This document shows, in pieces, positions 21,259 through 39,314 of a DNA stretch of 64,000 bases. Within the stretch, counting starts at the first letter, position 1. Each line of letters begins with the position of its first letter. Under the pieces are notes generated by a model. It was not told where the DNA came from, searched no databases, and saw only the letters and a list, made by a program, of their open reading frames with translations. The position numbers and the translations under genes are program-made. The DNA lies in contig CADCIX010000006.1 in assembly GCA_902801565.1 (NCBI GenBank), positions 10,070 through 74,069 of the forward strand, in the 5' to 3' direction. The stretch is from an uncultured Veillonellaceae bacterium. Its GTDB lineage: Bacteria; Bacillota; Negativicutes; Selenomonadales; Selenomonadaceae.

Positions 21259-21276
21259 GATGTACCAAACAAAACT

Positions 21277-21555: not shown

Positions 21556-21811
21556 TTTCAAATCCACCGCCTTTGGAAAACTCTATAATGAGATGTGCCG
21601 TACTTCTCACGATATCCAAATAATGATTTACTTCGCCTTGCTCAAATCCAAATACATCATCCAATCGGTAACTCGGAAGATAACATGTCATGTGATGAAA
21701 ACAATCCTTTTCATCCGGTTTCTCTATGTAAACTTTTACCTCGTCATTCTCCAACAACTCGGAATGTACGATTTCAGTTCCATCATCCAATATCAAAAAG
21801 GGGTACATCAT
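21539..21811 (-). CDS. Small hypothetical protein overlapping the DUF4160 gene start
   Basis: About 90 aa starting at MMYPFLILDDGTEIV. Overlaps the downstream gene by 17 bp. No family recognised (does not resemble DUF2442). Confidence 0.45.
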   Translation of the reverse strand: MMYPFLILDDGTEIVHSELLENDEVKVYIEKPDEKDCFHHMTCYLPSYRLDDVFGFEQGEVNHYLDIVRSTAHLIIEFSKGGGFENAANF

Positions 21812-21856
21812 TGCATTCACCTTCCATTCACCCTGCTGCCTCCTCAAAGAGAGCCA

Positions 21857-22705: not shown

Positions 22706-22727
22706 AACACATTCCTCCCCAATGCCG

Positions 22728-25746: not shown

Positions 25747-25794
25747 ATACAGATACACCTCTATAGATTATTGCTCGATGATTGCTCCTTATTG

Positions 25795-26500: not shown

Positions 26501-26528
26501 ATTACACGTTGGCGGAAGCCAGCACCAT

Positions 26529-26606
26529 GACTCAGTAGCTCAGCTGGATTAGAGTATTTGACTACGAATCAAAGGGTCGGGGGTTCGAGTCCCTCCTGGG
26601 TCACCA
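26529..26606 (+). tRNA. tRNA-Arg (anticodon ACG), CCA encoded
   Basis: GACTCAG TA GCTC AGCTGGATTA GAGT A TTTGA CTACGAA TCAAA GGGTC GGGGG TTCGAGT CCCTC CTGGGTC A CCA folds as a cloverleaf and closely resembles E. coli tRNA-Arg(ACG). Confidence 0.92.
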
Positions 26607-26618
26607 TAAGAAAAGTTC

Positions 26619-26650
26619 AAGCCCATCGGTACATGCCGATGGGCTTTTTT
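26619..26650. terminator. Terminator after tRNA-Arg, shared with the convergent secreted-protein gene
   Basis: AAGCCCATCGG-tacatg-CCGATGGGCTTTTTT. Confidence 0.75.
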
Positions 26651-27822
26651 CAACGCTCCGTATGAACTATGGTCTCTTCTTTCTTCTTCTCCTTCTTTTC
26701 CTCGCCGGGAGCGAGAATCAGGAGTGCTGGCAGGTTGGAGGCCCCGGGAGGGGAATATTCGATGGCTGTTCCCTTGTAAGGAGGATAAAGGCCAAGATCG
26801 GCAAACTCGAAATCCCGTGAGAAAACCATTTTCTCATCATATCTTTCCGGCAAGCCGAAAGGTGTCTTTTCCCCAAAGTAAAGCTTTCCTGTCGGCGTCT
26901 CCACCAGACGTATGCCTTCCTTGTGCTTCACGCGCACAGCACCCGCATAGACACCACCAAGGGGGCTGAGGAGGAAATGGGTCGGCGACTTGCCCTTCGT
27001 TGGAATCTCAAAGCGATAGCGTACCCCGTAATTCCCGTAATTCTGGACAGCGCTCCCATCCGTGGCATCGATTCCCATCTTGTAGACATCGCTCTTGTTG
27101 TCCCCAATGGGAATATACACCATGCCATCCTTCTGCGGGTCATAGATACGCTTTGCCGTTATCGTGCGGTTCATGCCCTGAAAGGTCCCCCGAAGGGCAT
27201 ACTCATCGCGGGGAAGGACCTTGGCGGTTTCCGCAAAAAACACGGGATCGGAATACTCGGAGCAGAACACCACCGTCACCCGGACAGGAGAGGATGCCCG
27301 GATGTCATAGATACCGGAAACGAGTTCGCCGGGTTCCAGGAGAACATCATTCATTTTCGATGAAAGAACCCTTCCGCCCCCGCCTTCAATAGAAAAGGTT
27401 TTTTCCGTCTGGGGCATCGACATATAGCCAATCTCCGTCTCCTTCCCCACTTGCGGATAATTGTTGCTCGGTCTTGAAATCGCAGACCGCAGGATCTTTA
27501 CCTTCGCACGCCTGTCCCCCTCATTCCTGATAACAACTGCGGCCTTTCCGGGCCTGCCTGTCTCATTCAGATGATAATAAAAGATCCTGGCATCCCCTTC
27601 GACCACATCCGAGTAGAGGATCCCATGTTCCTTCACATACTCCGGGCTGTCAGAAAACAACAACACCCCCCCGGAATCCTTCGTCTCCACCGGCCATGGA
27701 TTCATCACACGCACATAGAAACCGCTTTCTTCATCTGCATAGTGGTCCGCAGATACCATGCCCGGAATGAGCCAGGCCATGCATCCTGCCAAAACACTTC
27801 GCAGAACAGATCTCCAATTCAT
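26650..27822 (-). CDS. Secreted hypothetical protein (about 390 aa) with K/E-rich C-terminal tail
   Basis: MNWRSVLRSVLAGCMAWLIPGMVSA signal peptide. AGGAAG lies 8 nt upstream of ATG 27822. No motif recognised. Confidence 0.6.
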   Translation of the reverse strand: MNWRSVLRSVLAGCMAWLIPGMVSADHYADEESGFYVRVMNPWPVETKDSGGVLLFSDSPEYVKEHGILYSDVVEGDARIFYYHLNETGRPGKAAVVIRNEGDRRAKVKILRSAISRPSNNYPQVGKETEIGYMSMPQTEKTFSIEGGGGRVLSSKMNDVLLEPGELVSGIYDIRASSPVRVTVVFCSEYSDPVFFAETAKVLPRDEYALRGTFQGMNRTITAKRIYDPQKDGMVYIPIGDNKSDVYKMGIDATDGSAVQNYGNYGVRYRFEIPTKGKSPTHFLLSPLGGVYAGAVRVKHKEGIRLVETPTGKLYFGEKTPFGLPERYDEKMVFSRDFEFADLGLYPPYKGTAIEYSPPGASNLPALLILAPGEEKKEKKKEETIVHTER

Positions 27823-27849
27823 CTTTATACTTCCTTTCACTACGAACTT

Positions 27850-29409
27850 TCATTTGCGCTTGTCCAGGTTACCCCCCATTTCTGGCAAGAGGGGCCTTCC
27901 TCCCGCAAACGGTGACCGCCGGGACGGAGGACTTTCCTGGCCAGGCTTCGTATTTTGCGCCGGCCTGGAAGGATTTGCCGAACCAGGAACAGGATCCTTG
28001 ACGTTTCTCAATTCCTTCATCTGCTGCTCCAAGGCCAGCAACCGTTTTGCCAAGGATTCCTGCCCCTTTTTGAGATCAACCGCCAATGCCTCCCAGTCAA
28101 TCTCATCTGCCCCTGTCTGCCCAGCCATTCCCTTCCCTTGGGATTTCTCTTGGGAGCCCGCCTCCAAATCCCTGGAAACAAACACATGATGAAAGGGAAC
28201 AGAAAAGGTCTCGAAGGCCGAATAAAACGCCACGTTTCTCTGAAACATCCTCTTTGCCGTCTCGGTGTGGTACAGCAGAATCGTCTTCCTTGCAAGATTC
28301 ACGCTGGCCACCCGATAAATGCCCGCAGCGACATAGCCCTGCACGTAGTTCCCGCTCACCGAGACAAAAAGATCCACGAGCAGATTCCCGTCATAGTACA
28401 CCTTGTGGGGATACCTTGCGCTCTCAAGCATCTCCCGGGTCAGTGGAACCCTGTTCTTTTCATCCATCAACAGCTCTCCGTTTCCCGCTCTGCTGCGCCT
28501 TGCCAAAATCCTGCTGCGGCCGATCTTTTTCCTTGCAGCGGGCACCGGGATTTCCTGGGGACGCGTTGACTCAAGCACTGCGGCAAAATCAAATGCGTGT
28601 CCAAAAACAGGCTGCCTGAACTTCCCGAAAAGAATCTCTCTCAAAAGGCTTTTCTGCTTTACCAGAATAGCCTCTCCATCAAAGACAAGATACCCGCTTT
28701 TCCATAACCGCAGAAGTTCCTCATATTTCCCCATGGATTCCACATTCAGCCCATGCGGAACCAGATCCTTGGAAAACCAGGCATGGACTGACTGCATTGC
28801 ATCCATGCCGGAACTGTCCTCCTCATGCAGGCGGCAGATCGGCACCAGAGCAACCTTCCCTCCGCTGCTGTACCAGCCATCCCGCCCATTCACCCAACAC
28901 CAATGGGATTCCTTGCCGCGAAGTTCCTTCGTCAGTATCACGGTATTGTAAACGGTCTCGGGAAAATGGGAAAATCCCCCGGTGCTTTGCAGGTAAGGGT
29001 TTCCGGTATTGGCCATGAAGCTCTTCCGAAATTCCCTCTGGGTCATCGGGACAAAATGAAACCCTTCAAAATCCAGCCCGCGATAGGATCGCACCGGTTG
29101 TTTCGAGGTATCAAAGACAGGCAGGTCTATTGCCTCAAACATCGGGAACAACGCTGCATTGGCACGATCAAACCAGACCTTCTTGTTTTTCATTTTGACG
29201 AAATGACGATTTGCCAATGGCCGGATATCCTCCAAAAAGGACAGGACATCCTTGGACAATGCTTCGACTCTTTCCAGCATCGCATGAGCCGCCAATACCT
29301 GTTTCTCCAAGGAAAACAGCCGCTTCCCCAAAGAAGCGAAGCCCTTCTGCACCCCCAGCAAGGCTGCATCGTATCTTGGGAGAGTCTTCGCACCATCCAC
29401 CACATTCAC
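27850..29409 (-). CDS. Hypothetical protein (about 519 aa) with the same coiled-coil motif at both termini
   Basis: Long ORF on the coding strand of its neighbours, with a 10-bp gap to the downstream gene. The start may be GTG 29409, 29403 or 29400. No family recognised. Confidence 0.6.
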   Translation of the reverse strand: MNVVDGAKTLPRYDAALLGVQKGFASLGKRLFSLEKQVLAAHAMLERVEALSKDVLSFLEDIRPLANRHFVKMKNKKVWFDRANAALFPMFEAIDLPVFDTSKQPVRSYRGLDFEGFHFVPMTQREFRKSFMANTGNPYLQSTGGFSHFPETVYNTVILTKELRGKESHWCWVNGRDGWYSSGGKVALVPICRLHEEDSSGMDAMQSVHAWFSKDLVPHGLNVESMGKYEELLRLWKSGYLVFDGEAILVKQKSLLREILFGKFRQPVFGHAFDFAAVLESTRPQEIPVPAARKKIGRSRILARRSRAGNGELLMDEKNRVPLTREMLESARYPHKVYYDGNLLVDLFVSVSGNYVQGYVAAGIYRVASVNLARKTILLYHTETAKRMFQRNVAFYSAFETFSVPFHHVFVSRDLEAGSQEKSQGKGMAGQTGADEIDWEALAVDLKKGQESLAKRLLALEQQMKELRNVKDPVPGSANPSRPAQNTKPGQESPPSRRSPFAGGRPLLPEMGGNLDKRK

Positions 29410-29525: not shown

Positions 29526-29551
29526 AAAAAAAGCGCCGCTTTCGCGACGCT
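29526..29551 (-). terminator. Terminator of the tRNA operon
   Basis: Minus strand reads AGCGTCGC-gaaa-GCGGCGCT TTTTTTT. Confidence 0.75.
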
Positions 29552-29561
29552 TGCCTTTTCG

Positions 29562-29647
29562 TGGTGGGCAGGGATGGATTCGAACCATCGTAATCCGAAG
29601 ATGACAGATTTACAGTCTGTTGCCTTTAACCACTCGGCCACCTACCC
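29562..29647 (-). tRNA. tRNA-Tyr (anticodon GTA), long variable arm, CCA encoded
   Basis: Reverse complement is GGGTAGGTGGCCGAGTGGTTAAAGGCAACAGACTGTAAATCTGT...GGTTCGAATCCATCCCTGCCCACCA. Confidence 0.9.
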
Positions 29648-29651
29648 ATGA

Positions 29652-29729
29652 TGGTGACCCAGGAGGGACTCGAACCCCCGACCCTTTGATTCGTAGTCAA
29701 ATACTCTAATCCAGCTGAGCTACTGAGTC
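29652..29729 (-). tRNA. tRNA-Arg (anticodon ACG); sequence matches the 26529-26606 copy
   Basis: By manual comparison, the reverse complement matches the plus-strand copy over all 78 nt. Confidence 0.92.
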
Positions 29730-29747
29730 ACAAAACTATGTAATTTT

Positions 29748-29824
29748 TGGTGGGCCCACTTGGACTCGAACCAAGGACCGACCGGTTATGAGCCGGTTGC
29801 TCTAACCAACTGAGCTATAGGCCC
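29748..29824 (-). tRNA. tRNA with CAT anticodon (Met by anticodon; resembles lysidine-type tRNA-Ile2)
   Basis: GGGCCTATAGCTCAGTTGGTTAGAGCAACCGGCTCATAACCGGTCGGTCCTTGGTTCGAGTCCAAGTGGGCCCACCA. The anticodon stem-loop GGCTCATAACC is like Bacillus tRNA-Ile(CAU). Confidence 0.85.
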
Positions 29825-29873
29825 ATAGATATATTGATTTCTGCCGGCAAATCCAGCAAAACCAACTGCAAAA

Positions 29874-29948
29874 TGGAGCGGAAAACGAGGCTCGAACTCG
29901 CGACCCCCACCTTGGCAAGGTGGTGCTCTACCACTGAGCTATTTCCGC
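29874..29948 (-). tRNA. tRNA-Gly (anticodon GCC), copy 1
   Basis: GCGGAAATAGCTCAGTGGTAGAGCACCACCTTGCCAAGGTGGGGGTCGCGAGTTCGAGCCTCGTTTTCCGCTCCA. Confidence 0.92.
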
Positions 29949-29952
29949 AGAA

Positions 29953-30027
29953 TGGAGCGGAAAACGAGGCTCGAACTCGCGACCCCCACCTTGGCAAGGT
30001 GGTGCTCTACCACTGAGCTATTTCCGC
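29953..30027 (-). tRNA. tRNA-Gly (anticodon GCC), copy 2 (tandem duplicate)
   Basis: Same 75-nt sequence as copy 1 by manual comparison, separated from it by 4 nt. Confidence 0.92.
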
Positions 30028-30073: not shown

Positions 30074-30102
30074 ATTCTAATCATTTATCGGTCTTTTGTC
30101 AA
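30074..30102 (-). promoter_or_regulatory. Predicted promoter of the five-tRNA operon; its -35 overlaps the helicase stop codon
   Basis: Minus strand reads TTGACA, 17 nt, TAGAAT, located about 45 nt upstream of the first tRNA-Gly. Confidence 0.6.
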
Positions 30103-33100
30103 GCATTTTTTTCATTTTTTTCATCAGCCAGCAAATCCTCCCGCCTCCATTCCTCGCGAATCCGTGCTGCGGCTTCCAGCACCCTTGCCAAAAGCTCTTC
30201 CCGCGCTTTCCCTGCAGAATGGCCGGCATCTTCCTTCCCCATCGGCAAGATCCCATATCGGCGAAGCTCTTCCTCCATGTCATCCATGGCACTCTCCGGG
30301 GAACGATAAAACCTGCTGCCCCGAAGCCGCAGGAATACCCATCCCAAACGCTCCAGCACTGCCTGTTCCTTCTGTGCTTCCAAAAGACAGTTCTCATCAT
30401 CCTCCCCGTCCTCGCCTTCACAGGAAACAGCGACCCTGCGGCCAGAAGACAGGACCGCCATATCAATCCGATAGGCGCCCACGGGCCACCGCTCCTCTAC
30501 GCGAAACCCCCGCTGACGGAGCCTCTGTGCCACCTCCTGATGGAACGCCGGCACAGGCCCCCCTGCCGTTCTACCTCCCGACAACATCATGGAATCCTCC
30601 GGGGAGGCCGCATATTCCAGAAGGCCGCGCCGAAGACCGCCTTCCTCCAGTTCCTCGATGCCCATGGAATGAAGCACCCATAGCTGATCCCTGGCCCGAC
30701 TGGCCGCAACATTATAGTTCCGCTTTTCGGCATCGACCGGTTCCTTCCCGGAATCCATCTCCTGCACCGATGCTGCATCATCCACCATGGAAAGGAAGAT
30801 GACATCCCTTTCATCTCCCTGGAAATTCATGGGGGTGCCCGCCAGGAAATTCCTTTCCTCCAAACGCGGAATGCCGATGCGCCGCAGGGCAATCTCCCGT
30901 ATCAGGCGCCCCTGGCCATCCCCCAGCAGCGAAATGGCGCCAAAGGTCTTGCCCTCATACTCCGATTGCTCCATACAGGCCATCATGAGCACGACAATCT
31001 CCTCTGCCTCCTTCCAATTCACTGGCCGCTCCCCGTCCCTCACACCATCCACCTCATAGGAAACCACAGGTTTCAGCGTACTCCCTCCGGATTCCCGGAG
31101 AGGCTGTATGAGATTCTGGTAGACAAGCTGGTTGGAATAACCGATAATTTCGGGAACAGAACGGAAATGCTCCTTGAACATGCGCGTCTCGAAATACATC
31201 CGGGCGATATCATAGAGGGAATTGTCCAGAACATAGGGATTTGCATATCCATCTCCCTCGAAAAGAGAAGGCACTCCGAGGCCGGACACCTCATCCTCTG
31301 ACAGATCGATCGGTTCCGGAGCAACCTGCTTGTCATCCCCCACGACAATCACCTTGTGTCCGAAATAAAGCAGGGGCAGCGATGTGATATCCGCCTGGCT
31401 TGCTTCATCCATGATGATGACATCGAACTTCCTGCTCTCCGGCTGCAGATTTTCCCATACCTTGTCCAAGGGCATGATCCATACCGGCACGGCAGACTGC
31501 AGTTCCATCGTCTGTTTCCGGGCCATGCGGACGCGACGGGAAATGTTCCTCCCTGCGTCCCTTCCTGCTTTTTTCACCGCCCTGCTCCAGCTCATGAGCG
31601 TCGCACGAATGCCGCTGTCTGCAACCTCCTGGAAAAAATTCCGCCATGCCAATTTTTCCACCAAACCGGCCGTGATTTCATGAAGCTGCTCCAACTGCCG
31701 GTGCAAAGCCCCATCCAAGCCTGCCACATCCTCCCCGGCCGCCTTTGCCAATTGCTGGACAAACTGCCGGCATTTCCATGCATCCTCAAGAGCAGCCGGC
31801 ACCTCTGCCATACCGGAGCTTCCATGCTGGCGGGCTATGCCCGCTGCCCAGTCGGGGGCAACCGACGCTAGCCGCGCCAGAAAATCCGTCCGCTCCTTGA
31901 ACTTGTCCATCAGGCTTTCATAGTGGAGCAATTTGTCATAGTCCTTGCGATACGCCTCGCTGCTCCCCCCCTGCAAGGCAACAGCCAGACGCTTTGCGAG
32001 CTGGGAACGCCGTTCCGCTAATTCTGCGACACGCTTGCGGAAATTTCCCATCAATGCCTGTTTTTCGATGCATTCCAAGCGAATCAGTGCAGCACACTGC
32101 GGCCAGGACTCCTGAAGCCAATGGATCTCCATCGCCATCTGCTGGCGCGGTGTCATGAACCTCTCATCCTCCGGCAGGATCTTTTCCAGCTTTACCCCCG
32201 CCTCATCCAGATGTTTCTGAAAGGATTCCCTGCGATTATCGTACCAGTCAAGGCAATACTGAATCTGCTCCCAGCGGGCGCTGCAGATATCATCCACATC
32301 ATCCGAGGAAATCCAGAGCTCCTCATAGGTTGGCTCACCGCACCGTCCCAGAAGATGGTCCCATTCCTGCTGCACCCGCCGCCGCGCCTGCTGCAGGCTG
32401 AGATATCTCTCCGCCACCATACAGTCCTGGTCACTCCGAAGGCCATGGCCGTCAACGAGGATCTTCTGTGAAAGCCTGCGCCAGCTTCCATGAAGGATTT
32501 TCTGCAAAATGGACAGCTCTCCCTTACGGGCAAAGGTCTCCCGCATATCCGCCAGCTCCCTGAGCACCCGCTCATCATACATTATCTCTTCCGGGCATTC
32601 CACCGAACGCCCCAATAGCGGAATCACGGCTGCATCCTTGCAGGTCCGCACCCGCCTAATATCCTCGCCCAGCTGCTCCCATGCCATCCGCGCAGTTCCG
32701 CCCTGCCTGCCTGCCAGTACAGCTTCTCTGGCCCAGACGGACTCCATCCATGCAAAATCGATCTGCCGATAATCTGCCTCCGCCGTCAGGAATGCGTCCA
32801 TCTGAAAATCCGCCACAACCTGCTCATGACGGTAAAAGATCTGCTCCTCCTCCACAGTCCAGTCCGGCAACTCCTGCAAGAGGCCGCGTTCCCGCTCACC
32901 CAGGATTTCCTGTTCCTGCAAGAGATTCTCCACATCTACAGGGGACAGGAGCCTGCCGCTCTTCGGCAGATTCTCCGCCATTTCCTTCAGGTCCTGACGG
33001 CTGAACAAACCGTTGCTGGCATAAAGCAGGGCCAGTTCCTCTGCCGTCAGGGGGATTGCCTTCCCCTCCCCGACCTTTCCCGGGACAATTTCCAATAAAT

Positions 33101-34643
33101 GCTCATGTTCATGGACAAACCTGGCCATTCCAGAAAGGGAATACGCTTCTCCCCCGAAGGAAAAGAAGTCCCTCCTGTGTTCCATGCGTCGGACAGCGGC
33201 TGCCTTCTCACGGGAATCGCCGAGCAGCTTCCGGGCTTCCTTCCATTTTCGGCGCGCTTCCTGGGCCTCATACTCCATATCCTCTGTGGTGGAGCTTCCC
33301 AGCACATCGCAGATTCCCTCCACGGAACGTTCCAAATCCCGATAGGAATCCCCCTGCAGGGAAACACAGAGATTGCGGATCCCCTCCGGGAGCATGCCTT
33401 TCAGGATGCGCAATGCCTTGGGCGTTGAGCTCGTCACCAGCACGCGGTTTCCCCTTGCCAGGAAATGCCCCAACAGATTTGCAATGGTATGCGTCTTTCC
33501 CGTACCGGGAGGCCCCTGTACCACCACAGCAGAGGATTCCTCCAGTTTCCTGGCAATTCCGATCTGTTCCGCATTGGCGGATTTGACCAGAAGGATATCC
33601 TCGGACTCTCCCCTTGCATCCGCCAGGGTCTCCCTGCGGCAGGACACATTCCTCTCCGATGCCCTGGCATCCACAATATCCAGGAGGGGCAAGGGAACAT
33701 CGCCCTTATCCGCAATGCGTTCCATGATTCCCGAGAGCAATCTTTCTTTTCTCGAATGCTTCCTGCGCAGGAAAAGCACAGGACGGGCATAGAGAATATA
33801 CCAGTCCGTAGGCAGGATATGGAACCCTTCTGACGCATAACGGCATTTGGGACTAAGCAGGGAGGCCATATCTTTCAAGAGAGCTTCCCCAACGTCCTTC
33901 TGCAAAGGATGGATACCGGACCTCCCAACTTTCCTTTGTGCTGCACGGAGTGCCTCTTCACCCACATCCTCCTGCCCAAGGAAAAGCTCACTATAGAACT
34001 CCAGTTCCTCCCTGGCATCCACAAGCTGCATGTGCTCCTTTTCCGTATAGCGCACCTGCACCTTTTTGAGCAACAAGGGATGATGCAGACGGGAATCCAG
34101 ACCACTGTAGAAGAAACCATTTCCCGCCATGAGTTCCATCTTCTCTCCATCCCGGCGGCAGCGCTCATATATGCGGTAGAGGTCATCGAACAGATGCTTC
34201 GCCTGTTGTTTCAGCCGCTCTTTCTTGCGCCACTTCTGCCTGGCCTTCTTCCACTCTGAAAAATTCCTGACGCGCCGCTCGCTGTCATGGAAGCGCATGA
34301 CAATGCTTCCCATCTGCTCCGTGGTTTTCGCCAGTTCCGAATGCACCTTGACCTCATCCACGTGAAAATCTTCCCATCGGGGCGTTGCAATCCAGCCCGC
34401 CAGGGCATCCGGCAAAGCAGGGCATGGGGAAAACTCCGGACGGCCTACATCCAAAAGGATTTCGCTCCCATCCTCGTCTTTACCAGCAAAAAAACGAAGT
34501 CCGCCTCCTTCAGATTCCAGCTTGTCCAGATAGAGCACCCACTCCTGTTTCTCAATATCTGTCACGGTTTTATATTGCAAAACACAGATCTGGCGAATAT
34601 ATTCCAACAAGGCCAGAACTTTTTCCTGCTTCTCACGGCTCAT
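30099..34643 (-). CDS. 1514-aa SF1 (Upf1/DNA2-like, AAA_11/AAA_12-type) helicase with a C-terminal Vsr/DUF559-like endonuclease fold
   Basis: Helicase motifs seen: GPPGTGKTHT (aa 377-386), IIMDEASQ (aa about 1076-1083), VVGDDKQ, FQGDERDVIFLS and NVAASRARDQLWV. The C-terminus reads YRIDMAV...VAVSCEGE...LERLGWVFLRLRG. The ATG overlaps the upstream stop (ATGA). Confidence 0.85.
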   Translation of the reverse strand: MSREKQEKVLALLEYIRQICVLQYKTVTDIEKQEWVLYLDKLESEGGGLRFFAGKDEDGSEILLDVGRPEFSPCPALPDALAGWIATPRWEDFHVDEVKVHSELAKTTEQMGSIVMRFHDSERRVRNFSEWKKARQKWRKKERLKQQAKHLFDDLYRIYERCRRDGEKMELMAGNGFFYSGLDSRLHHPLLLKKVQVRYTEKEHMQLVDAREELEFYSELFLGQEDVGEEALRAAQRKVGRSGIHPLQKDVGEALLKDMASLLSPKCRYASEGFHILPTDWYILYARPVLFLRRKHSRKERLLSGIMERIADKGDVPLPLLDIVDARASERNVSCRRETLADARGESEDILLVKSANAEQIGIARKLEESSAVVVQGPPGTGKTHTIANLLGHFLARGNRVLVTSSTPKALRILKGMLPEGIRNLCVSLQGDSYRDLERSVEGICDVLGSSTTEDMEYEAQEARRKWKEARKLLGDSREKAAAVRRMEHRRDFFSFGGEAYSLSGMARFVHEHEHLLEIVPGKVGEGKAIPLTAEELALLYASNGLFSRQDLKEMAENLPKSGRLLSPVDVENLLQEQEILGERERGLLQELPDWTVEEEQIFYRHEQVVADFQMDAFLTAEADYRQIDFAWMESVWAREAVLAGRQGGTARMAWEQLGEDIRRVRTCKDAAVIPLLGRSVECPEEIMYDERVLRELADMRETFARKGELSILQKILHGSWRRLSQKILVDGHGLRSDQDCMVAERYLSLQQARRRVQQEWDHLLGRCGEPTYEELWISSDDVDDICSARWEQIQYCLDWYDNRRESFQKHLDEAGVKLEKILPEDERFMTPRQQMAMEIHWLQESWPQCAALIRLECIEKQALMGNFRKRVAELAERRSQLAKRLAVALQGGSSEAYRKDYDKLLHYESLMDKFKERTDFLARLASVAPDWAAGIARQHGSSGMAEVPAALEDAWKCRQFVQQLAKAAGEDVAGLDGALHRQLEQLHEITAGLVEKLAWRNFFQEVADSGIRATLMSWSRAVKKAGRDAGRNISRRVRMARKQTMELQSAVPVWIMPLDKVWENLQPESRKFDVIIMDEASQADITSLPLLYFGHKVIVVGDDKQVAPEPIDLSEDEVSGLGVPSLFEGDGYANPYVLDNSLYDIARMYFETRMFKEHFRSVPEIIGYSNQLVYQNLIQPLRESGGSTLKPVVSYEVDGVRDGERPVNWKEAEEIVVLMMACMEQSEYEGKTFGAISLLGDGQGRLIREIALRRIGIPRLEERNFLAGTPMNFQGDERDVIFLSMVDDAASVQEMDSGKEPVDAEKRNYNVAASRARDQLWVLHSMGIEELEEGGLRRGLLEYAASPEDSMMLSGGRTAGGPVPAFHQEVAQRLRQRGFRVEERWPVGAYRIDMAVLSSGRRVAVSCEGEDGEDDENCLLEAQKEQAVLERLGWVFLRLRGSRFYRSPESAMDDMEEELRRYGILPMGKEDAGHSAGKAREELLARVLEAAARIREEWRREDLLADEKNEKNA

Positions 34644-36418
34644 GCGCCCTTCTCCTCCGCAGCATCTTCCTGTTCCTTCGTTTCCTGTGCTTTTTTCGCT
34701 TCTTCCTTTTCCATCCGGGCAAACGCTTTGGGATCGATCTCCTTCAGATATTCCTTGGGAATCTCAGCCTTGGAATCCAGGGTATGAAGCGTCCGGTAGG
34801 CGTCCAAGGCCTGCTCCCTCTGGTCCATCTCATCGTAGAGCTCCGCCGTGAGAAGCCATGCTACTGCGCTCTTTTTATCCAATTCCCTTGCCTTGGCACA
34901 GTCCTCCATTGCCTTTTCCCGATCTCCCATCATACGATAGATATCCGCCCTGTTCAAATAGTTCAAGGCATTACTCCCATCCATGCGAATGCCCTTCCCG
35001 GCATCTTCCAACGCCCCGGCAAAATCCCCTGCCACGGCCTTGGCCCTGCCGCGGATCACATAGCATTCCGCCATGTTGTCCTGCTTCTCGCTTTTCATGG
35101 CCCGTTCCATCTCCACCATAGCCATCTCACTCATGCCATAGTCGCTGTAGGCATCGCTGTTGTAACGGAGCTTTTCCGCAAACTTCTTGTCCGCGGACAA
35201 TGCCTGTTGCCGGATCTTCTCAAGCTCATCCATCCGCTTTTTCTCTTTCTCCTGAAGCTTCGCCCGGCCTTCTGCATCAGCTTCCCTGCCATAGGCTGCG
35301 GCCACCAGGGTTTCCAATCGCTGCATCGTTTCCCCATTTCCGGCAAACTCCTTCAGGATACCATAGACCCGGTCATCCGTGAGGCAATCCATTCTCCCCT
35401 GCTCCGTGCGGAAATTCCATCCCTCGATCGTGTCATGGTCATGGAATGCCTTGGCAAGAGCCCCGGCAACACCATAGGCATTCTCCACGGTATTGTCATA
35501 GCTCGCCCCCGTATCTCCCACGGAAAGGAAGAGCTCCCCATCGATGAGCACATCCTTCTGGTCGCGTATCGTCACATGCCCGCAGCTGTACTCCGTCATC
35601 AGCTCTGCCAGGCGCTTCTCGCGATCCTCTGTCTCCGGATGGTCGCTGTACTCCGTCTGGCCTTTCTTGTCCGGGCTGTCAAACTCATACATATCCCGGG
35701 TCTCATAGCGAAGGTAATGCTGCATGCGAGCCATTGCTGCGGCAGGCCCCCCGGGATTGAACCCGGCACTCGTCATGAGGAAGAAGCCTTCCTCATCCGC
35801 CTCTGCCTCCGTAGGCATCGTGACATTCGTGGCAATGGAATACCCCACAAGCCCGTTGAGTTTCTGCCAGTCAACGTTATTCGTCTCCATGCCGAGAAGG
35901 GTGATTCCCATGGCCTGCGCCACTGCCTGGGCATAATTGTGGGCGCTGTGCTGCCTGAGTCCATGCACCATCTCATGTGCCAGCACCGCTGCAATCTCGT
36001 CCTCATCAGAGTTGAGTCCCCGCACCAGCCCACGATTCACGCTGATGTAATTCGTCGGATAACAGGAAGCATTGAAGAGCTTGCTGTCATTCACTGCCCA
36101 TAGAAAAGGAAGCGAATTCACCTGCATCGCATAGTCTCCCTTATCGATGAGCTGCTTCATGACACGATCCACCAGCTGCACATCCATCGGGTTCCTGTCC
36201 TGCCCATTCTCCCGAAGATCCTGCCTGCGGCTGCTCACCTGGGCGTGGACATTATTGCCCATGCGCAGAAGATCCGTCAATGCCGACTTGTACATGCCGT
36301 AAATCCCCAATGCCTGGGCCGCTATCGCCCAGGGATCCGGGGAAGATGCCAGAGCCTTCCCTTGCGGCAGGATCCCCAAGGCAGCCACAAGCAAAACAGC
36401 AATCCATCGTTTCCACAT
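34640..36418 (-). CDS. Exported M48-family zinc metalloprotease with C-terminal TPR repeats (BepA-like architecture)
   Basis: Signal peptide MWKRWIAVLLVAALGILPQGKALA. HEMVH at aa 148-152, with a downstream EAEADE. The C-terminal approx 150 aa carry TPR-like repeats (AECYVIRGRAKAVAGDFAGALED..., ALNYLNRADIYRMMGDREKAMED...). Confidence 0.8.
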   Translation of the reverse strand: MWKRWIAVLLVAALGILPQGKALASSPDPWAIAAQALGIYGMYKSALTDLLRMGNNVHAQVSSRRQDLRENGQDRNPMDVQLVDRVMKQLIDKGDYAMQVNSLPFLWAVNDSKLFNASCYPTNYISVNRGLVRGLNSDEDEIAAVLAHEMVHGLRQHSAHNYAQAVAQAMGITLLGMETNNVDWQKLNGLVGYSIATNVTMPTEAEADEEGFFLMTSAGFNPGGPAAAMARMQHYLRYETRDMYEFDSPDKKGQTEYSDHPETEDREKRLAELMTEYSCGHVTIRDQKDVLIDGELFLSVGDTGASYDNTVENAYGVAGALAKAFHDHDTIEGWNFRTEQGRMDCLTDDRVYGILKEFAGNGETMQRLETLVAAAYGREADAEGRAKLQEKEKKRMDELEKIRQQALSADKKFAEKLRYNSDAYSDYGMSEMAMVEMERAMKSEKQDNMAECYVIRGRAKAVAGDFAGALEDAGKGIRMDGSNALNYLNRADIYRMMGDREKAMEDCAKARELDKKSAVAWLLTAELYDEMDQREQALDAYRTLHTLDSKAEIPKEYLKEIDPKAFARMEKEEAKKAQETKEQEDAAEEKGA

Positions 36419-36430: not shown

Positions 36431-38059
36431 TCAAAACATGATCTTGCACTCAAACATACGATTCCATGGGAAACTCACCTTCAGGTTCTGCCACCCATTA
36501 AAAGAAGGAAAGTTCCTCTCCGCAAATTCCCTCAGAAGTGCGCCGACACGATTTTCCTCTTCCGTGCGGAAACCATCCAGCCGTCCATAGGCTTCTGCAT
36601 GCCCTGCCATCCGCAGCTCATTTTCCACAGCGCCTCGTACATTGGCCTGATATGCCCAGTCATCAAGATAGCGGCGAAGCAGGAGCCGCTCCCGTCCCGC
36701 ATCGGTCATCTTGTTGGACAGCATCCCTGTTCCCAGCGCGAAGCCGGAACTATTGGTCGCCGTGTTCCATCCGGAATACGCACGAAGCCTTCCCAGCAGG
36801 CCTTCCTTCCACAGATTCTCCATCAGTGCATTATCGGAACCATTGGCAAAGGCGATATCCGCAATCCCCACAGGATACCCTTTGGCGAGGCAGTCCTTCA
36901 GAAGGTCGAAGAAATACATGGAGCCATCCCGCGCATTTCCGTCATTGACCATCGGTGCAGAGCCCGGCACGGAAAAAGATGCCTCCCCTGTTCTCCCCTG
37001 AGGATCCGTATTCACCAACAGGACGAAATCCGCCTTGCCCGGTTCGGGAACCAGCATGCCGCCAGCCACCACCACAGAATCACGAATGGAATCCCCGATG
37101 TGCTCGTCGGAATAGGAAGGAATCGTATCCGCACCCGTGCCCTCATTGTACAACACATAGACAAAGGGAACCTCATTCTGCAAATCGTTGACCGCCCGCG
37201 TCAGGAGCAGCAGGTTGAATTCATCGATTCCCGTCATGGACTTGAACTGGCTCCCGGCCATTCCCCTTGTCGCGGCATAGGACTTGAGCTCCCTGTTTTC
37301 CTTATGTGTCTGGCAAAGAGGCGCATTGTCATCCCGACCGACAACGAAGCATTTCGCAATGCCTTGCTTCGTCAAGTCCATCAGCTGTTTCGTGGCGGAG
37401 AGGTTCTTCTCCCGACGGTTCATCCAGTCCAGCAATACCTCCGAGGGGATGCGCTGCCGGACCTCTTTCATCTCTGCTTTCTCCTGGGCGGAAAGATGCC
37501 CCATCTCCTCCTTGTCCTTGAGTGCCGTATAGCGAAAGATATCCGCGCCGTAATCATTGTAGTACTCCGGCTCCTCATTTCCGGAATAGATCCCGCTCTT
37601 CGGCGTCCGCATCAGGGAGCCGAAAAGGTACAGCCTGAGTTTCGGATACTTGTCGTGAAACTGCTTGAACCGTTTCACCCTCTCATCGATTTTCACCTGT
37701 GCAATCTCATGTTTCCGCGAGGGAATCAATCCCCCATAAAGCATGGAATCCGTGGAGACCACCGCTGCCTGCGCAGATTTTGCATTTTCCTCCAGCCATT
37801 TCCACAATCCATCGGGATTCCCCGGTTCTTCCAGGGCGCGGGACAACAAATCCTCCGGCGGCATCACCAGTTCATAGCCGGCCTGTTCCACCACCTCCGC
37901 CGTCTGCTGCATGGAAATCGGACGGTTGTCGTGGGGAATGAAGATGATCTTCTCCGCGCACTCTGCGCTGCCTCCCCATCCCAGCATCACAAAAACGGCC
38001 AGGCATGACAGCAACAAAATGCGGCAAATCCCTGTTTTTCTCTGTATCTTCTCTTTCAT
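36431..38059 (-). CDS. DUF4127-family protein with N-terminal signal/anchor
   Basis: MKEKIQRKTGICRILLLSCLAVFVMLGWGG, then IIFIPHDNRPIS and STDSMLYGGLIPSR, as in DUF4127. ATG at 38059 follows GGAGAA. The listed ORF start at 38224 overlaps the upstream gene. Confidence 0.75.
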   Translation of the reverse strand: MKEKIQRKTGICRILLLSCLAVFVMLGWGGSAECAEKIIFIPHDNRPISMQQTAEVVEQAGYELVMPPEDLLSRALEEPGNPDGLWKWLEENAKSAQAAVVSTDSMLYGGLIPSRKHEIAQVKIDERVKRFKQFHDKYPKLRLYLFGSLMRTPKSGIYSGNEEPEYYNDYGADIFRYTALKDKEEMGHLSAQEKAEMKEVRQRIPSEVLLDWMNRREKNLSATKQLMDLTKQGIAKCFVVGRDDNAPLCQTHKENRELKSYAATRGMAGSQFKSMTGIDEFNLLLLTRAVNDLQNEVPFVYVLYNEGTGADTIPSYSDEHIGDSIRDSVVVAGGMLVPEPGKADFVLLVNTDPQGRTGEASFSVPGSAPMVNDGNARDGSMYFFDLLKDCLAKGYPVGIADIAFANGSDNALMENLWKEGLLGRLRAYSGWNTATNSSGFALGTGMLSNKMTDAGRERLLLRRYLDDWAYQANVRGAVENELRMAGHAEAYGRLDGFRTEEENRVGALLREFAERNFPSFNGWQNLKVSFPWNRMFECKIMF

Positions 38060-38123
38060 AGAATTCTCCAAAATCATCCCCCTCAACGAATCACCCGCTT
38101 CACATGGTTTCCTTCTGAACTTT

Positions 38124-39314
38124 TCATGTTTCCTCATCCTTTGCCATGCAGCAGTTCTTGTATTTCTTCCCGCTGCCGCAGGGACAGGGATCGTTTCTTT
38201 TTGCCTTCGCCTTATGCTGCCCAAAGGGAACCACCTTCCCCTTGCTTTCCCCCATAAGTTCCCCGGGGGTGTGTCCCTTGAGGGGCCAGAGATGTGTGGA
38301 ATTGTTGAAATCCATCAGCAGGGGAACCATCGCCTTTGCCTTGCGGTCATCTGCCATGAGGCCAAGCTCCTCAAGATATTCCACCACATCCTTCATGGCA
38401 TTGCCGTTCTGCAGCAGGATAAGGATTTCCCCCACCACATCCGCTGCTTTGAGGACATCGTATCCATGCTCCTTCATGATGAACTGCGCCAGTGCCTTAT
38501 AGGCATCCGTCGCTTCAATATAATTGTCCTCCCCTGCCTCATAGACCTTGTCATAAGGCAATTTGACAAAGTCCAGATTGCTGCGGCGGCACTGCTCGTT
38601 CTCCAGTTTGTCTGCACTGATGAGAGTATAGTATTTCATTCCATGGGGAAGTGCCCCGATGTTCTGCTTCCAGCATGCCGCATTGAGCATGATGCCCACG
38701 AAATCCATAAAGGAAACGGTCTCCCGCGCCTCCTTCTCCAGATATCCTCCCACCATACCATAGAGCTGGTCAAAATTCAGATAACCGCAATAAAAGAGCA
38801 GCCCCGTTGCCAGTCTTGCAATTTCCGTATTGAGTTCCACCGCACTGCGGAAAACACCAGAATCAATCTTCCGAAACTCCTCCTGTATCTCCTCCGGCAT
38901 GTACCAGGCGAGCTTTTCCTCCTGCACGCCGCAGGAAACAAGCCCCAGCCCCATCAGATAATCCAGTCGGATATCATCATCCCGAAGTTCCGTGGAGATG
39001 CCGGAATGTTCCATGAGATGGCGGAAACAGCCGTATTCCTCTTCCAGCATGGACGGGAACCAGCGACGGGAAAACTCCGGCACCGCCTCCGCCAGTCTTT
39101 CCACCAGTTCGTCCTTCTTCAGGGAACTGATCCCTGTCACATTGAGGTTATAGCAGATATCCTCCAACGTCGTCTTCGTCATACCGGAAAGGGCACTTCT
39201 CAAATCTCTTTTCTCCGGAAGTTTGTGGCGATAAAGCTGTTTGCGCCGTTCCTCCTTTGCCGCCGCTTCCAAATTTTCCAATTCTTTCGTGATATCGATT
39301 TCTTTAGGTTTCAA
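38124..39314 (-). CDS. SEC-C motif protein with an N-terminal SAP/Rho-N-like helix-hairpin
   Basis: C-terminal DPCPCGSGKKYKNCC (nt 38148-38186). N-terminal LEDICYNLNVTGISSLKKDELVERLAEAV. TTG start at 39314 follows GGAGAT. Confidence 0.75.
   Translation of the reverse strand: MKPKEIDITKELENLEAAAKEERRKQLYRHKLPEKRDLRSALSGMTKTTLEDICYNLNVTGISSLKKDELVERLAEAVPEFSRRWFPSMLEEEYGCFRHLMEHSGISTELRDDDIRLDYLMGLGLVSCGVQEEKLAWYMPEEIQEEFRKIDSGVFRSAVELNTEIARLATGLLFYCGYLNFDQLYGMVGGYLEKEARETVSFMDFVGIMLNAACWKQNIGALPHGMKYYTLISADKLENEQCRRSNLDFVKLPYDKVYEAGEDNYIEATDAYKALAQFIMKEHGYDVLKAADVVGEILILLQNGNAMKDVVEYLEELGLMADDRKAKAMVPLLMDFNNSTHLWPLKGHTPGELMGESKGKVVPFGQHKAKAKRNDPCPCGSGKKYKNCCMAKDEET

What the first reader, a model, noticed from the sequence alone, without database searches (positions are those of the whole stretch)
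30099..34643. Giant SF1 helicase fused to a Vsr/DUF559-like nuclease fold, with an unusually long insert inside the helicase core
Seen in the sequence:
- Walker A GPPGTGKT sits at aa 377-384 (nt approx 33492-33515).
- Walker B DEAS appears only at aa approx 1079 (nt approx 31400-31409), so about 690 aa separate motifs I and II. This insert is largely helical and charged.
- Motifs VVGDDKQ, FQGDERDVIFLS and NVAASRARDQLWV follow in Upf1/DNA2-like (AAA_11/AAA_12) order.
- The last approx 150 aa (nt approx 30300-30540 for the core) read YRIDMAV...VAVSCEGE...LERLGWVFLRLRG, the pattern of DUF559/MTES_1575-type restriction-endonuclease-like domains.
- The first approx 370 aa carry no motif I recognise.

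From established knowledge: single-polypeptide SF1 helicase + Vsr-like nuclease proteins recur in defence islands and have been proposed as stand-alone anti-phage genes. I recall the Hhe class in PADLOC, but this is from memory and unverified.

Inference: this is a candidate nucleic-acid-targeting defence or genome-surveillance enzyme with atypical architecture. It sits directly next to a tRNA operon, a classical hotspot for accessory DNA.
Basis: partly seen in the sequence, partly recalled or inferred. Interest (0 to 1): 0.75.

Follow-up and report, generated by a model that had tools for sequence, protein, structure and literature searches.

The report
Hhe-like giant helicase, decayed nuclease site
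This is a 1,514-residue motor protein related to known anti-phage helicase-nuclease enzymes, but in this rumen-bacterium lineage the DNA-cutting site has decayed and the gene sits at a fixed chromosomal spot, so it probably moves along nucleic acid without cutting it.

Summary
ORF 30099-34643(-) encodes a 1,514-aa Upf1-like SF1B helicase. Walker A and Walker B lie about 695 aa apart, and a Vsr-like MTES_1575 domain follows (Pfam E 1.4e-20).

Three corrections apply:
- **The long insert is not atypical.** It occurs in every family member, in the ProA model and in a Sphingobium DUF3320 relative. Klebsiella Hhe has an even longer gap (about 940 aa).
- **The protein belongs to neither Hhe nor ProA.** It scores 96 bits against an Hhe cut-off of 2000 and 174 bits against a ProA cut-off of 1500. 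It belongs to a separate, unnamed, multi-phylum family with its own 330-aa N-terminal domain, which has no match of known fold.
- **The nuclease site has eroded.** Most of the family, and Hhe, keep E-D-E-D-H at five sites. The query has H-D-S-E-E, and all 45 closest relatives (the Selenomonadaceae clade) are also eroded. Their helicase motifs are invariant.

The gene is intact and under purifying selection (dN/dS 0.12). It lies directly upstream of the same tRNA-Gly-Gly-Met-Arg-Tyr operon in relatives down to 41-43% identity, beside core genes, with no island signatures.

The best reading is a vertically retained derivative of a mobile Hhe/ProA-like helicase-nuclease family with a decayed nuclease site, acting as an ATP-driven translocase. 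Its biological role is unknown. Interest is moderate.

The parts
30099..34643 (-). Complete ORF of 1514 aa: giant Upf1-like SF1B helicase with an N-terminal domain, a helical insert and a C-terminal Vsr-like domain
   Evidence: dN/dS is 0.12 against the 94%-identical ortholog L003.
33654..34643 (-). N-terminal domain (aa 1-330), alpha/beta, specific to this family, with no known fold
   Evidence: No Pfam, NCBIfam or PADLOC hit. The AF2 model has pLDDT of about 90 over aa 1-320. Foldseek against the PDB gives a best E of 0.16. phmmer finds 856 cluster representatives; among the 150 listed, the match lies at or near the N-terminus, mostly in proteins of about 1500-1900 aa. P69, P75, W84, W131, W138, F152, P189 and P246 are invariant.
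33354..33581 (-). First part of RecA1 (aa 355-430), with Walker A GPPGTGKT (nt 33492-33515) and motif Ia
   Evidence: AAA_11 matches aa 359-411. G377-T384 is invariant across the family.
31509..33353 (-). Mostly helical module of about 615 aa (aa 431-1045) inserted in RecA1 between motif Ia and motif II
   Evidence: The AF2 model has mean pLDDT 86.6 and this stretch is almost all helices. No solved structure covers it. It is conserved family-wide and has dN/dS 0.08. It aligns with the ProA model and with a Sphingobium DUF3320 protein, but not with Klebsiella Hhe.
31194..31508 (-). Second part of RecA1 (aa 1046-1150), with Walker B DEASQ (D1079/E1080) and motif III GDDKQ
   Evidence: D1079, E1080 and Q1106 are identical in all 120 relatives that align there (one, P0052, has a gap at Q1106).
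30609..31193 (-). RecA2 (aa 1151-1345), AAA_12, with motifs V FQGDERD and VI NVAASRAR
   Evidence: AAA_12 E 6.6e-10. R1279 and R1316 are invariant. The fold matches SETX/Sen1, UPF1, Dna2, IGHMBP2 and ZNFX1, with E from 2e-11 to 8e-8.
30258..30560 (-). Vsr-like MTES_1575 domain (aa 1362-1462) with the fold retained and the active-site residues eroded (H1368, D1394, S1407, E1409, E1414 in place of E-D-E-D-H)
   Evidence: Pfam E 1.4e-20. Pentad table. Hhe carries E-D-E-D-H. The domain is relaxed within the clade: 48.8% mean identity against 67.1% in canonical members. It is still constrained against the closest ortholog (dN/dS 0.14).
30102..30257 (-). C-terminal long helix (aa 1463-1514); no DUF3320 or wHTH extension
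   Evidence: AF2 places a helix at model residues 1148-1184. There is no DUF3320 hit in the query, but there is one in P0130 and in the Sphingobium relative.
34640..36418 (-). Upstream gene whose stop overlaps the helicase start (ATGA): an exported M48 metalloprotease (HEMVH) with TPR repeats, BepA-like
   Evidence: A signal peptide, MWKRWIAVLLVAALGILPQGKALA, is visible. The pairing is conserved only in the query sub-clade ((L003)). Homologs elsewhere lack the helicase.
29562..30027 (-). Co-directional tRNA operon Gly(GCC)-Gly(GCC)-Met-Arg(ACG)-Tyr directly downstream; this linkage is conserved across the clade
   Evidence: The same operon follows the helicase in L001, L004, L005 and L032; in L002 and L003 the contig ends after the first tRNA-Gly.
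30074..30102 (-). Promoter-like site TTGACA-17-TAGAAT (11 of 12) for the tRNA operon, overlapping the helicase stop codon; a strong terminator follows at 29531-29552
   Evidence: consensus scan only.

Best explanation
The gene encodes a derivative of a widespread, horizontally mobile family of single-polypeptide helicase-nuclease proteins whose nuclease site has decayed. That family is a sibling of the anti-phage proteins Hhe and ProA.

**Shown**
- The Upf1/Sen1/Dna2-type SF1B motor is complete. Motifs I, Ia, II, III, V and VI are all intact.
- The N-terminal domain and the 615-aa helical insert in RecA1 are conserved and under purifying selection.
- The C-terminal Vsr-like fold is retained, but it has lost the acidic and histidine residues that are invariant in canonical members and in Hhe.
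- The gene has been inherited at one chromosomal position, directly upstream of a tRNA operon, throughout a Selenomonadaceae clade.

**Inferred**
- The protein binds single-stranded nucleic acid and translocates 5'->3' using ATP, as its structural relatives do.
- The N-terminal domain and the helical insert act as the substrate-sensing, autoinhibitory or oligomerisation scaffold.
- The dead Vsr-like domain serves as a nucleic-acid-binding or structural module rather than a cutter.
- The ancestral family works like Hhe, with the motor locating foreign or aberrant DNA and the nuclease cutting it. In this clade that has become translocation or remodelling without self-contained cleavage.
- The role may be a residual nuclease-independent defence or a domesticated chromosomal one. 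The evidence does not decide between these.
For: **Motor**
- Pfam AAA_11 and AAA_12 match.
- PDB sequence hits are Sen1, Upf1, DNA2 and IGHMBP2.
- The AF2 model (pLDDT 86.6) matches SETX, UPF1, Sen1, Aquarius, Dna2, IGHMBP2 and ZNFX1 with E from 2e-11 to 8e-8.
- K383, D1079, E1080, R1279 and R1316 are identical in all 121 aligned proteins and Q1106 in 120, and in all complete genome loci.

**Family relationship**
- ProA scores E 2.7e-51, aligning aa 329-1464 in a single stretch. Hhe scores E 7.8e-28. PDC-S37 scores E 1.9e-47.
- hhalign against a Sphingobium DUF3320 protein spans the whole length (probability 100%, E 7e-109). That protein lies between a restriction endonuclease and AbiEi/Eii on a conjugative megaplasmid.

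**Nuclease decay**
- E-D-E-D-H is present in 75 of 121 family proteins and in Klebsiella Hhe. All 46 proteins in the clade, counting the query, are degenerate, and in several different ways. The query reads H-D-S-E-E and S. ruminantium reads E-P-A-D-V.
- E-D-E-D is kept in 68 of 80 genome loci, but in none of the 6 Selenomonadaceae-clade loci.
- Mean identity in the Vsr domain is 48.8% within the clade against 67.1% in canonical members. Every other domain except the short C-terminal tail is more similar within the clade than among canonical members.

**Gene is functional**
- dN/dS is 0.12 overall, 0.08 for the insert and 0.14 for the Vsr-like domain.
- Intact ORFs of about 1500 aa occur throughout the clade.

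**Vertical retention**
- The same tRNA Gly(-Gly)-Met-Arg-Tyr operon follows the gene in the window and in L001, L004, L005 and L032; in L002 and L003 the contig ends after the first tRNA-Gly. These relatives range from 94% down to 41-43% identity.
- The upstream core cluster holB-PSP1-rsmI-metS-tatD is shared with L002 and in part with L083, which starts at the rsmI-type methylase.
- There are no defence neighbours, no GC shift and no flanking repeats.

**Nuclease dependence in Hhe**
- The E1731A mutation abolishes Hhe defence (bioRxiv 10.1101/2022.06.16.496414).
Against: - No biochemistry exists for any member of this family. Translocation polarity, substrate (DNA or RNA) and the roles of the N-terminal domain and insert are all inferred from homology.
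- The catalytic assignment rests on conservation and on the general Vsr/PD-(D/E)xK pattern, not on a solved active site.
- The query keeps D1394, E1409, E1411 and an acidic run (EGEDGEDDEN), so a non-canonical metal site cannot be excluded.
- The Vsr-like domain is still under purifying selection in the closest pair, so it does something.
- The helicase evolves about three times faster than the neighbouring MetRS. That pace is more typical of conflict genes than of housekeeping genes.
Confidence: 0.6

Rival explanations
1. The protein is an active stand-alone anti-phage helicase-nuclease of the Hhe type that cuts invading nucleic acid, and it lies in an accessory island next to a tRNA hotspot.
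For: - The protein is homologous to Hhe, ProA, PDC-S37 and MkoA/C.
- The family is patchy across phyla and is found on plasmids.
- Some relatives sit beside Cas10, BrxA, methyltransferases, Shedu, AbiE, integrases or IS elements.
- The gene evolves fast.
- D1394 and several nearby acidic residues remain.
Against: - Three of the five conserved active-site positions carry non-conservative replacements in the query (D1409 to E is conservative). No alternative residue set is conserved even within the closest sub-clade (HDSEE, HDSEL, NHVED, QPVED, SDVDD).
- Hhe requires its nuclease residue.
- The gene's position is conserved down to 41-43% identity, with core neighbours and no island marks.
- Scores lie far below the curated Hhe and ProA cut-offs.
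Confidence: 0.15
2. The helicase and the upstream M48-TPR protease form a functional two-gene system, translationally coupled by the ATGA overlap.
For: - Overlapping stop and start codons, and the adjacency itself, are conserved in the window, L003, L002, L084 and L083.
- In L084 the context further upstream is different ((L003)).
- The two genes have diverged to a similar degree (66.6% and 67.8% identity against L002).
Against: - The protease has a Sec-type signal peptide and is BepA-like, so it is periplasmic, whereas the helicase is cytoplasmic.
- The S. ruminantium-type orthologs have no M48 partner.
- M48-TPR homologs in other Selenomonadaceae and in Mitsuokella stand without the helicase.
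- No conserved partner was found across 82 loci.
Confidence: 0.08
3. The gene is a decaying relic on its way to becoming a pseudogene, with no remaining function.
For: The nuclease site is eroded, the Vsr domain is relaxed, and overall divergence is fast.
Against: - The 1514-codon ORF is intact and has a good ribosome-binding site.
- dN/dS is 0.12, and all domains are constrained.
- Motor motifs are invariant in 45 clade members spanning 40-95% identity.
- The AF2 model is confident.
Confidence: 0.03

Closest known systems
Hhe (DUF4011 helicase + Vsr endonuclease single-gene anti-phage protein; PADLOC PDLC02194, NCBIfam NF042953)
   Same: - It is a single giant polypeptide.
- It has an Upf1-like AAA_11/AAA_12 motor with a very long gap between Walker A and Walker B (447 and 1384 in Klebsiella Hhe).
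- An MTES_1575/Vsr-like domain follows directly after RecA2.
- The C-terminal roughly 420 aa align with the family profile (hhalign probability 99.9%, E 2.4e-33).
   Different: - The score is 96.5 bits against a cut-off of 2000.
- There is no DUF4011 N-terminal domain and no DUF3320 tail.
- The N-terminal domain and the insert do not align with Hhe.
- Hhe keeps E-D-E-D-H and needs its nuclease residue for defence, whereas the query has H-D-S-E-E.
- The query gene is chromosomal and syntenic, whereas the Klebsiella Hhe copy examined lies on a conjugative plasmid next to IS elements.
ProA (NCBIfam NF058533, 'anti-phage protein ProA')
   Same: This is the best-scoring named model (E 2.7e-51). One alignment stretch covers query aa 329-1464 against model positions 623-1707. 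The motor, the long insert and the Vsr-like domain are therefore all homologous.
   Different: - The score is 174 bits against a cut-off of 1500.
- The 622-position N-terminal region of the ProA model is not matched.
- Canonical members of this family also fall short, at 275 bits or less.
- The primary literature on ProA was not found in the paper library.
MTES_1575-type / DUF3320 giant helicases (Anantharaman et al. 2013, PMC3710099); example: Sphingobium pMSHV WP_081570538
   Same: Homology runs the full length, including the N-terminal domain and the insert (hhalign E 7e-109 over profile columns 16-1485). The spacing from Walker A to Walker B is the same, about 685 aa.
   Different: - The relative is about 420 aa longer, with an extra N-terminal extension and a DUF3320/wHTH tail.
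- It has an intact IECDG..H nuclease motif.
- It lies in a defence island on a conjugative megaplasmid.
PADLOC candidate PDC-S37 and Mokosh MkoA/MkoC
   Same: They share the Upf1-like helicase core. PDC-S37 also shares the region through the Vsr-like domain (E 1.9e-47, query 1036-1462 against model 902-1340 of 1550).
   Different: - The matches are partial and low-scoring for a 1500-aa protein.
- PDC-S37 is an unvalidated candidate, to my knowledge.
- Mokosh matches cover only the motor.
Eukaryotic and viral Upf1-like SF1B helicases (Sen1/SETX, UPF1, Dna2, IGHMBP2, Aquarius, ZNFX1, nsp13)
   Same: They share the RecA1/RecA2 fold and the motifs, and they carry accessory domains inserted into RecA1.
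   Different: - Only about 330-450 of the 1185 modelled residues superpose (TMq about 0.2).
- The 615-aa helical insert, the N-terminal domain and the Vsr-like domain have no counterpart in these proteins.

Membership tests
Hhe | Scores at or above the NCBIfam equivalog cut-off (NF042953, 2000 bits) | tested here: not met
   96.5 bits, covering only aa 1043-1472. Canonical family members reach at most 191 bits.
Hhe | DUF4011 N-terminal domain | tested here: not met
   There is no DUF4011 hit at E <= 0.1. The family profile aligns to a Klebsiella Hhe only over 1358-1788 of Hhe.
Hhe | SF1 (AAA_11/AAA_12) helicase core with intact ATPase motifs | tested here: met
Hhe | Vsr-like nuclease domain with intact active-site residues (E-D-E-D-H; needed for defence) | tested here: not met
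   The fold is present (MTES_1575 E 1.4e-20), but the residues are H-D-S-E-E. Hhe has E-D-E-D-H. The Hhe E1731A mutant is inactive.
Hhe | Protects against phage when expressed | not testable with these tools
   This needs an experiment.
ProA | Scores at or above the NCBIfam equivalog cut-off (NF058533, 1500 bits) over the full model | tested here: not met
   174.3 bits; model positions 1-622 and 1708-1903 are unmatched.
PDC-S37 (PADLOC candidate) | Full-length match to model PDLC05009 | tested here: inconclusive
   159.8 bits in 2 stretches, the best being 1036-1462 against 902-1340 of 1550. The library gives no curated cut-off. Canonical relatives score 214-259 bits.
Mokosh (MkoA/MkoC) | Match beyond the shared helicase core | tested here: not met
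   Only the helicase core matches: MkoC over 1071-1344 and MkoA over 367-432. The rest of the Mokosh gene content was not examined.
Upf1-like SF1B helicases | Motifs I, Ia, II, III, V and VI in order, and a RecA1/RecA2 fold matching Upf1, Sen1 and Dna2 | tested here: met
Upf1-like SF1B helicases | 5'->3' ATP-dependent translocation or unwinding | not testable with these tools
   Inferred from homology only.
Pfam MTES_1575 (Vsr-like REase fold) | Scores above the Pfam gathering threshold (38.2 bits) | tested here: met
   73.6 bits, aa 1367-1460, covering model positions 1-96 of 96. AF2 gives pLDDT of about 70-93 for this domain.
Unnamed family defined here (N-terminal domain + split motor + MTES_1575) | Full-length colinear homology including the N-terminal 330 aa | tested here: met
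   The 120 listed proteins cover 79-100% of the query (118 of them at least 95%). At least 574 species genomes carry a relative. The N-terminal domain alone finds 856 cluster representatives.

The most novel reading that the evidence does not exclude
A mobile Hhe/ProA-like defence enzyme was captured once in an ancestor of rumen and gut Selenomonadaceae. It then lost its nuclease and became fixed as a resident motor protein directly upstream of the tRNA Gly-Gly-Met-Arg-Tyr operon. It now has a new, nuclease-independent job. That job could be clearing R-loops or transcription-replication conflicts at highly transcribed loci. Alternatively, it could act as a sensor that hands over to effectors encoded elsewhere. 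Either case would be an example of domestication of a defence helicase-nuclease.
Probability: 0.3. Interest if true: 0.55.

Novelty: new variant of a known kind. Interest (0 to 1): 0.4.

Why it matters
**A gap in defence annotation.** The analysis defines a large family of Hhe/ProA-like helicase-nucleases (at least 574 species genomes and 856 cluster representatives). No tested PADLOC or NCBIfam defence model reaches its cut-off or matches it over full length. The family has a confidently modelled N-terminal domain and a 615-aa helical module with no structural precedent.

**A natural separation of functions.** A whole clade keeps the motor, the N-terminal domain and the insert under selection while the nuclease site decays. 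A canonical paralog coexists in at least one of the same genomes. That pairing could be used to ask what the motor and its accessory domains do on their own in this poorly understood class.

**A caution for annotation.** Labelling defence genes by domain architecture alone ('helicase + Vsr nuclease next to tRNAs') would overcall this gene.

Tried and rejected
- **Conserved partner gene.** All-against-all BLAST of ORFs within +/-5 kb in 82 loci found none. The M48-TPR pairing is lineage-specific.
- **Defence-island context in the window.** PADLOC found only a generic radical-SAM similarity to pVip and trivial SEC-C motif hits.
- **Island boundaries.** There are no flanking direct repeats and no GC shift.
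- **Defence enrichment among immediate neighbours.** Of 123 immediate neighbours of relatives, only single neighbours hit each defence model (Cas10, BrxA, MTases, Shedu, SoFic and others), and most are housekeeping genes. This was not decisive, and the output does not allow an exact count.
- **Fold assignment for the N-terminal domain.** Foldseek against the PDB gives a best E of 0.16 (weak CYTH/TTM-like hits at TM below 0.15), which I rejected as noise. BFVD gives only one 'AAA domain protein', probably a fragment of the same family.
- **Fold assignment for the insert.** Only the helicase core matched the PDB. The models could not be cropped for a domain-only search.
- **Phage origin.** There is no tblastn hit in 50,697 phage genomes.
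- **Primary paper on ProA.** Four searches found nothing.
- **Midpoint-rooted NJ tree.** It split the degenerate sequences into two groups at the root. I treat this as a rooting artefact, so one loss or two adjacent losses cannot be distinguished.
- **Lost calls.** One Python call did nothing useful, one failed on an aligner setting, and one query was out of frame.


Full report
**1. The observation**

The ORF at 30099-34643 on the minus strand is real. It is 1,514 codons long and starts with ATG. A GGAGGAG ribosome-binding site lies upstream, and its start overlaps the stop codon of the upstream gene as ATGA.

These are GPPGTGKT at aa 377-384, DEASQ from D1079, GDDKQ at 1102, FQGDERD at 1274, AASRAR at 1313, YRIDMAV at 1391 and SCEGE at 1407.

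Pfam gives the following:
- AAA_11 in two separated stretches.
- AAA_12 at aa 1151-1324.
- MTES_1575 at aa 1367-1460, E 1.4e-20, about twice the gathering score.
- Nothing for aa 1-330.

The description is therefore confirmed.

**2. What the protein is made of**

A profile of the family hits only Upf1-like SF1B helicases in the PDB by sequence: Sen1, Upf1, DNA2 and IGHMBP2.

An AlphaFold2 model of aa 330-1514 has mean pLDDT 86.6. It matches SETX/Sen1, UPF1, Aquarius, Dna2, IGHMBP2, ZNFX1 and nsp13 with E from 2e-11 to 7e-7. Only about 330-450 residues superpose, which is the two RecA domains.

The stretch between motif Ia and motif II, about aa 431-1045, is predicted with confidence as an almost entirely helical module. 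It has no solved counterpart.

The N-terminal 330 aa form a confidently modelled alpha/beta domain (pLDDT about 90). It has no significant Foldseek match in the PDB (best E 0.16). In the viral library it has a single match, to what looks like a fragment of the same family.

Searched alone against 1.84 billion cluster representatives, the N-terminal domain finds 856 proteins, 565 of them at E <= 1e-10. Among the 150 listed, the match lies at or near the N-terminus, mostly in proteins of about 1,500-1,900 aa; many shorter entries appear to be fragments.

**3. The long insert is the rule, not the exception**

- The NCBIfam ProA model aligns to aa 329-1464 in one stretch.
- A Sphingobium megaplasmid protein annotated 'DUF3320 domain-containing' aligns to the family profile over columns 16-1485 (hhalign E 7e-109). 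Its Walker A is at 508 and its Walker B at 1191.
- A Klebsiella plasmid protein that NCBI annotates as Hhe has Walker A at 447 and Walker B at 1384.

The 'atypical architecture' is therefore typical of this group.

**4. Family membership**

The protein is homologous to Hhe, ProA, PDC-S37 and MkoA/C, but it fails the curated cut-offs by an order of magnitude. ProA scores 174 bits against 1500, and Hhe scores 96 against 2000.

This is not because the query is an aberrant member. Canonical relatives also reach at most 275 bits for ProA and 191 for Hhe. There is no DUF4011 and no DUF3320. Hhe aligns only over the C-terminal roughly 420 residues.

The protein therefore belongs to a separate, unnamed family:
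- All 120 listed relatives cover 79-100% of the query (118 of them at least 95%) at 32-95% identity.
- At least 574 species-representative genomes carry one. They span Selenomonadaceae, Clostridia, Fusobacterium, Brachyspira, Gastranaerophilales, Saccharimonadales, Acidobacteriota, Verrucomicrobiota, Ktedonobacterales, Proteobacteria, Bacteroidaceae and Microbacteriaceae.
- Some longer members add a DUF3320 tail (P0130).

**5. The family at large looks accessory**

- No neighbouring gene is conserved across 82 loci.
- Relatives occur on 420 plasmid records, some of them interrupted by IS elements.
- One relative sits between a restriction endonuclease and AbiEi/Eii. Another sits beside an integrase/NikA element.
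- A few immediate neighbours are Cas10, BrxA, methyltransferases, Shedu or SoFic, though most are housekeeping genes.
- There is no match in 50,697 phage genomes.

No member has been tested.

**6. The nuclease site is eroded in this clade**

Five positions were aligned across 121 proteins, at query residues 1368, 1394, 1407, 1409 and 1414. They read E-D-E-D-H in all 75 proteins that are 38% or less identical to the query. Klebsiella Hhe has the same pattern (SDFE..., FFID..., IECDG..YHS).

All 45 closer relatives, like the query, are degenerate, and in different ways. The query and P0001 read H-D-S-E-E. Others read HDSEL, NHVED, QPVED, SDVDD, EPADV (S. ruminantium), EPVQV, EGDQY and so on.

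In 80 genome loci, E-D-E-D is kept in 68. The fifth position there is H, Y, N or, in five loci, another residue. None of the six Selenomonadaceae-clade loci keeps it, and about six scattered others have also lost it.

The motor residues K383, D1079, E1080, R1279 and R1316 are identical in every aligned sequence, and Q1106 in all but one, which has a gap there.

The Vsr-like domain is among the best-conserved parts in canonical members, at 67% mean pairwise identity. Within the clade it is among the least conserved, at 49%. Every other domain except the short C-terminal tail is more similar within the clade than among canonical members. Structural residues such as LERLGW.F.R.RGS persist.

In Hhe, a point mutation in the Vsr domain (E1731A) abolishes defence (bioRxiv 10.1101/2022.06.16.496414).

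From this I infer that the query's domain keeps the fold but no longer cuts in the canonical way. The assignment of these residues as catalytic rests on conservation and on general knowledge of Vsr/PD-(D/E)xK folds. It does not rest on a solved active site.

**7. The gene is alive and resident**

Selection:
- Against the 94%-identical ortholog in a goat-rumen Selenomonadaceae MAG (L003), dN/dS is 0.12 overall.
- By region it is 0.13 for the N-terminal domain, 0.08 for the insert and 0.14 for the Vsr-like domain.

Local context:
- The window upstream carries the core cluster holB-PSP1-methyltransferase-rsmI-metS-tatD-yabE-like.
- That cluster is shared with relatives whose helicases are 65% and 49% identical.
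- GC content is unremarkable.
- No repeats flank the gene.
- No neighbour hits a defence model convincingly.

Linkage to the tRNA operon:
- The tRNA Gly(-Gly)-Met-Arg-Tyr operon directly downstream of the helicase is also directly downstream of its orthologs in four other loci; in two more (L002, L003) only the first tRNA-Gly is visible before the contig ends. These are L003, L002, S. ruminantium TAM6421 and S137, an uncultured Selenomonas, and Selenomonas sp. AE3005, at 41-94% identity.
- L006 and L007 lack the operon.
- The operon is not found next to the canonical ~32% paralogs, nor next to the canonical copy in Selenomonas sp. F0473, which sits after rplQ.
- The tRNA operon is therefore a conserved neighbour here, not a sign of recent insertion.
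- A promoter-like TTGACA-17-TAGAAT overlaps the helicase stop codon, and a strong terminator follows tRNA-Tyr.

Rate of change: the helicase evolves faster than its neighbours. Against L002 it is 66.6% identical, compared with 88.5% for MetRS. Against L083 the figures are 50.1% and 83.3%.

**8. The upstream M48-TPR gene**

Its stop overlaps the helicase start in five loci, including one with a different context further upstream ((L003)).

It has a Sec-type signal peptide and an HEMVH motif, and it is BepA-like. S. ruminantium-type orthologs of the helicase lack it. Its homologs in other Selenomonadaceae and in Mitsuokella are not followed by the helicase.

I read this as lineage-specific synteny rather than a functional system.

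**9. Mechanism**

Shown:
- An intact SF1B motor.
- Conserved and constrained N-terminal and helical modules.
- A retained but eroded Vsr-like fold.

Inferred:
- ATP-driven 5'->3' translocation on single-stranded nucleic acid, as in Upf1, Sen1 and Dna2.
- The accessory modules act as sensor, autoinhibitor or scaffold.
- The dead domain acts as a binding or structural element.
- The ancestral family likely works like Hhe, coupling the motor to cleavage.
- This clade has lost the self-contained cleavage step.

Whether it still contributes to defence without cutting, or has been recruited to a chromosomal task, is open. Stable position and loss of the effector site favour the second.

**10. Verdict**

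This is a real and correctly described protein. It is a new variant within the known kind of Hhe/ProA-like helicase-nucleases, and it is not a member of either named family. The 'nuclease', 'atypical insert' and 'tRNA hotspot' parts of the interpretation are not supported for this gene. Interest is moderate.

Noticed in passing
window 26528-26607 (+) and 29651-29730 (-): Two identical tRNA-Arg(ACG) genes form an 80-nt perfect inverted repeat. They bracket 3,043 nt holding two ORFs (26650-27840, 396 aa; 27850-29409, 519 aa) with no credible Pfam, NCBIfam or PADLOC match. This could be an invertible or inserted segment.
   Followed up: partly
window 30074-30102 (-), 29531-29552 (-): A near-consensus promoter (TTGACA-17-TAGAAT) for the tRNA operon overlaps the helicase stop codon. 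No terminator separates the helicase from the tRNAs, so read-through is possible. A strong terminator follows tRNA-Tyr.
   Followed up: no
window 34640-36418 (-): An exported BepA-like M48 protease with TPR repeats is translationally coupled (ATGA) to the cytoplasmic helicase in five related loci, but not in S. ruminantium or Mitsuokella.
   Followed up: yes
window 36431-39314 (-): A DUF4127 gene and a gene with a SEC-C motif lie between FliB and M48-TPR here, but are absent at that place in the 65%-identical relative L002. In L084, DUF4127 lies near the M48-helicase pair in another context.
   Followed up: no
window 20001-23000 and 16001-20000: GC content falls to about 0.48 at 20-23 kb, directly after a stretch of about 0.60 at 16-20 kb. 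The window mean is about 0.55. This may be a foreign segment.
   Followed up: no
L005 and L020 (Selenomonas sp. AE3005): One genome carries both a degenerate copy (EPVQV, next to the tRNA operon) and a canonical E-D-E-D-H paralog (about 32% identical to the query) elsewhere.
   Followed up: partly
Plasmid hits H16 (Deinococcus actinosclerus CP029776.1) and H8 (Rhizorhabdus wittichii CP021182.1): Relatives of the family on plasmids appear to be interrupted by IS701 and IS1380 transposases.
   Followed up: no
L025, L037, L043, L053, L056, L024: Scattered members outside Selenomonadaceae also deviate from E-D-E-D at the nuclease positions. This suggests repeated independent loss of the nuclease in this family. 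Alignment errors were not excluded.
   Followed up: no
L088 (Selenomonas sp. F0473): A canonical family member lies immediately after the ribosomal-protein/rpoA/rplQ operon and before an NFACT (RqcH-like) gene. This is another insertion into a highly conserved core region.
   Followed up: no
window 24553-25758 (-): A radical SAM/SPASM protein gives weak PADLOC pVip hits (72 bits). This is probably generic radical-SAM similarity rather than a viperin.
   Followed up: no
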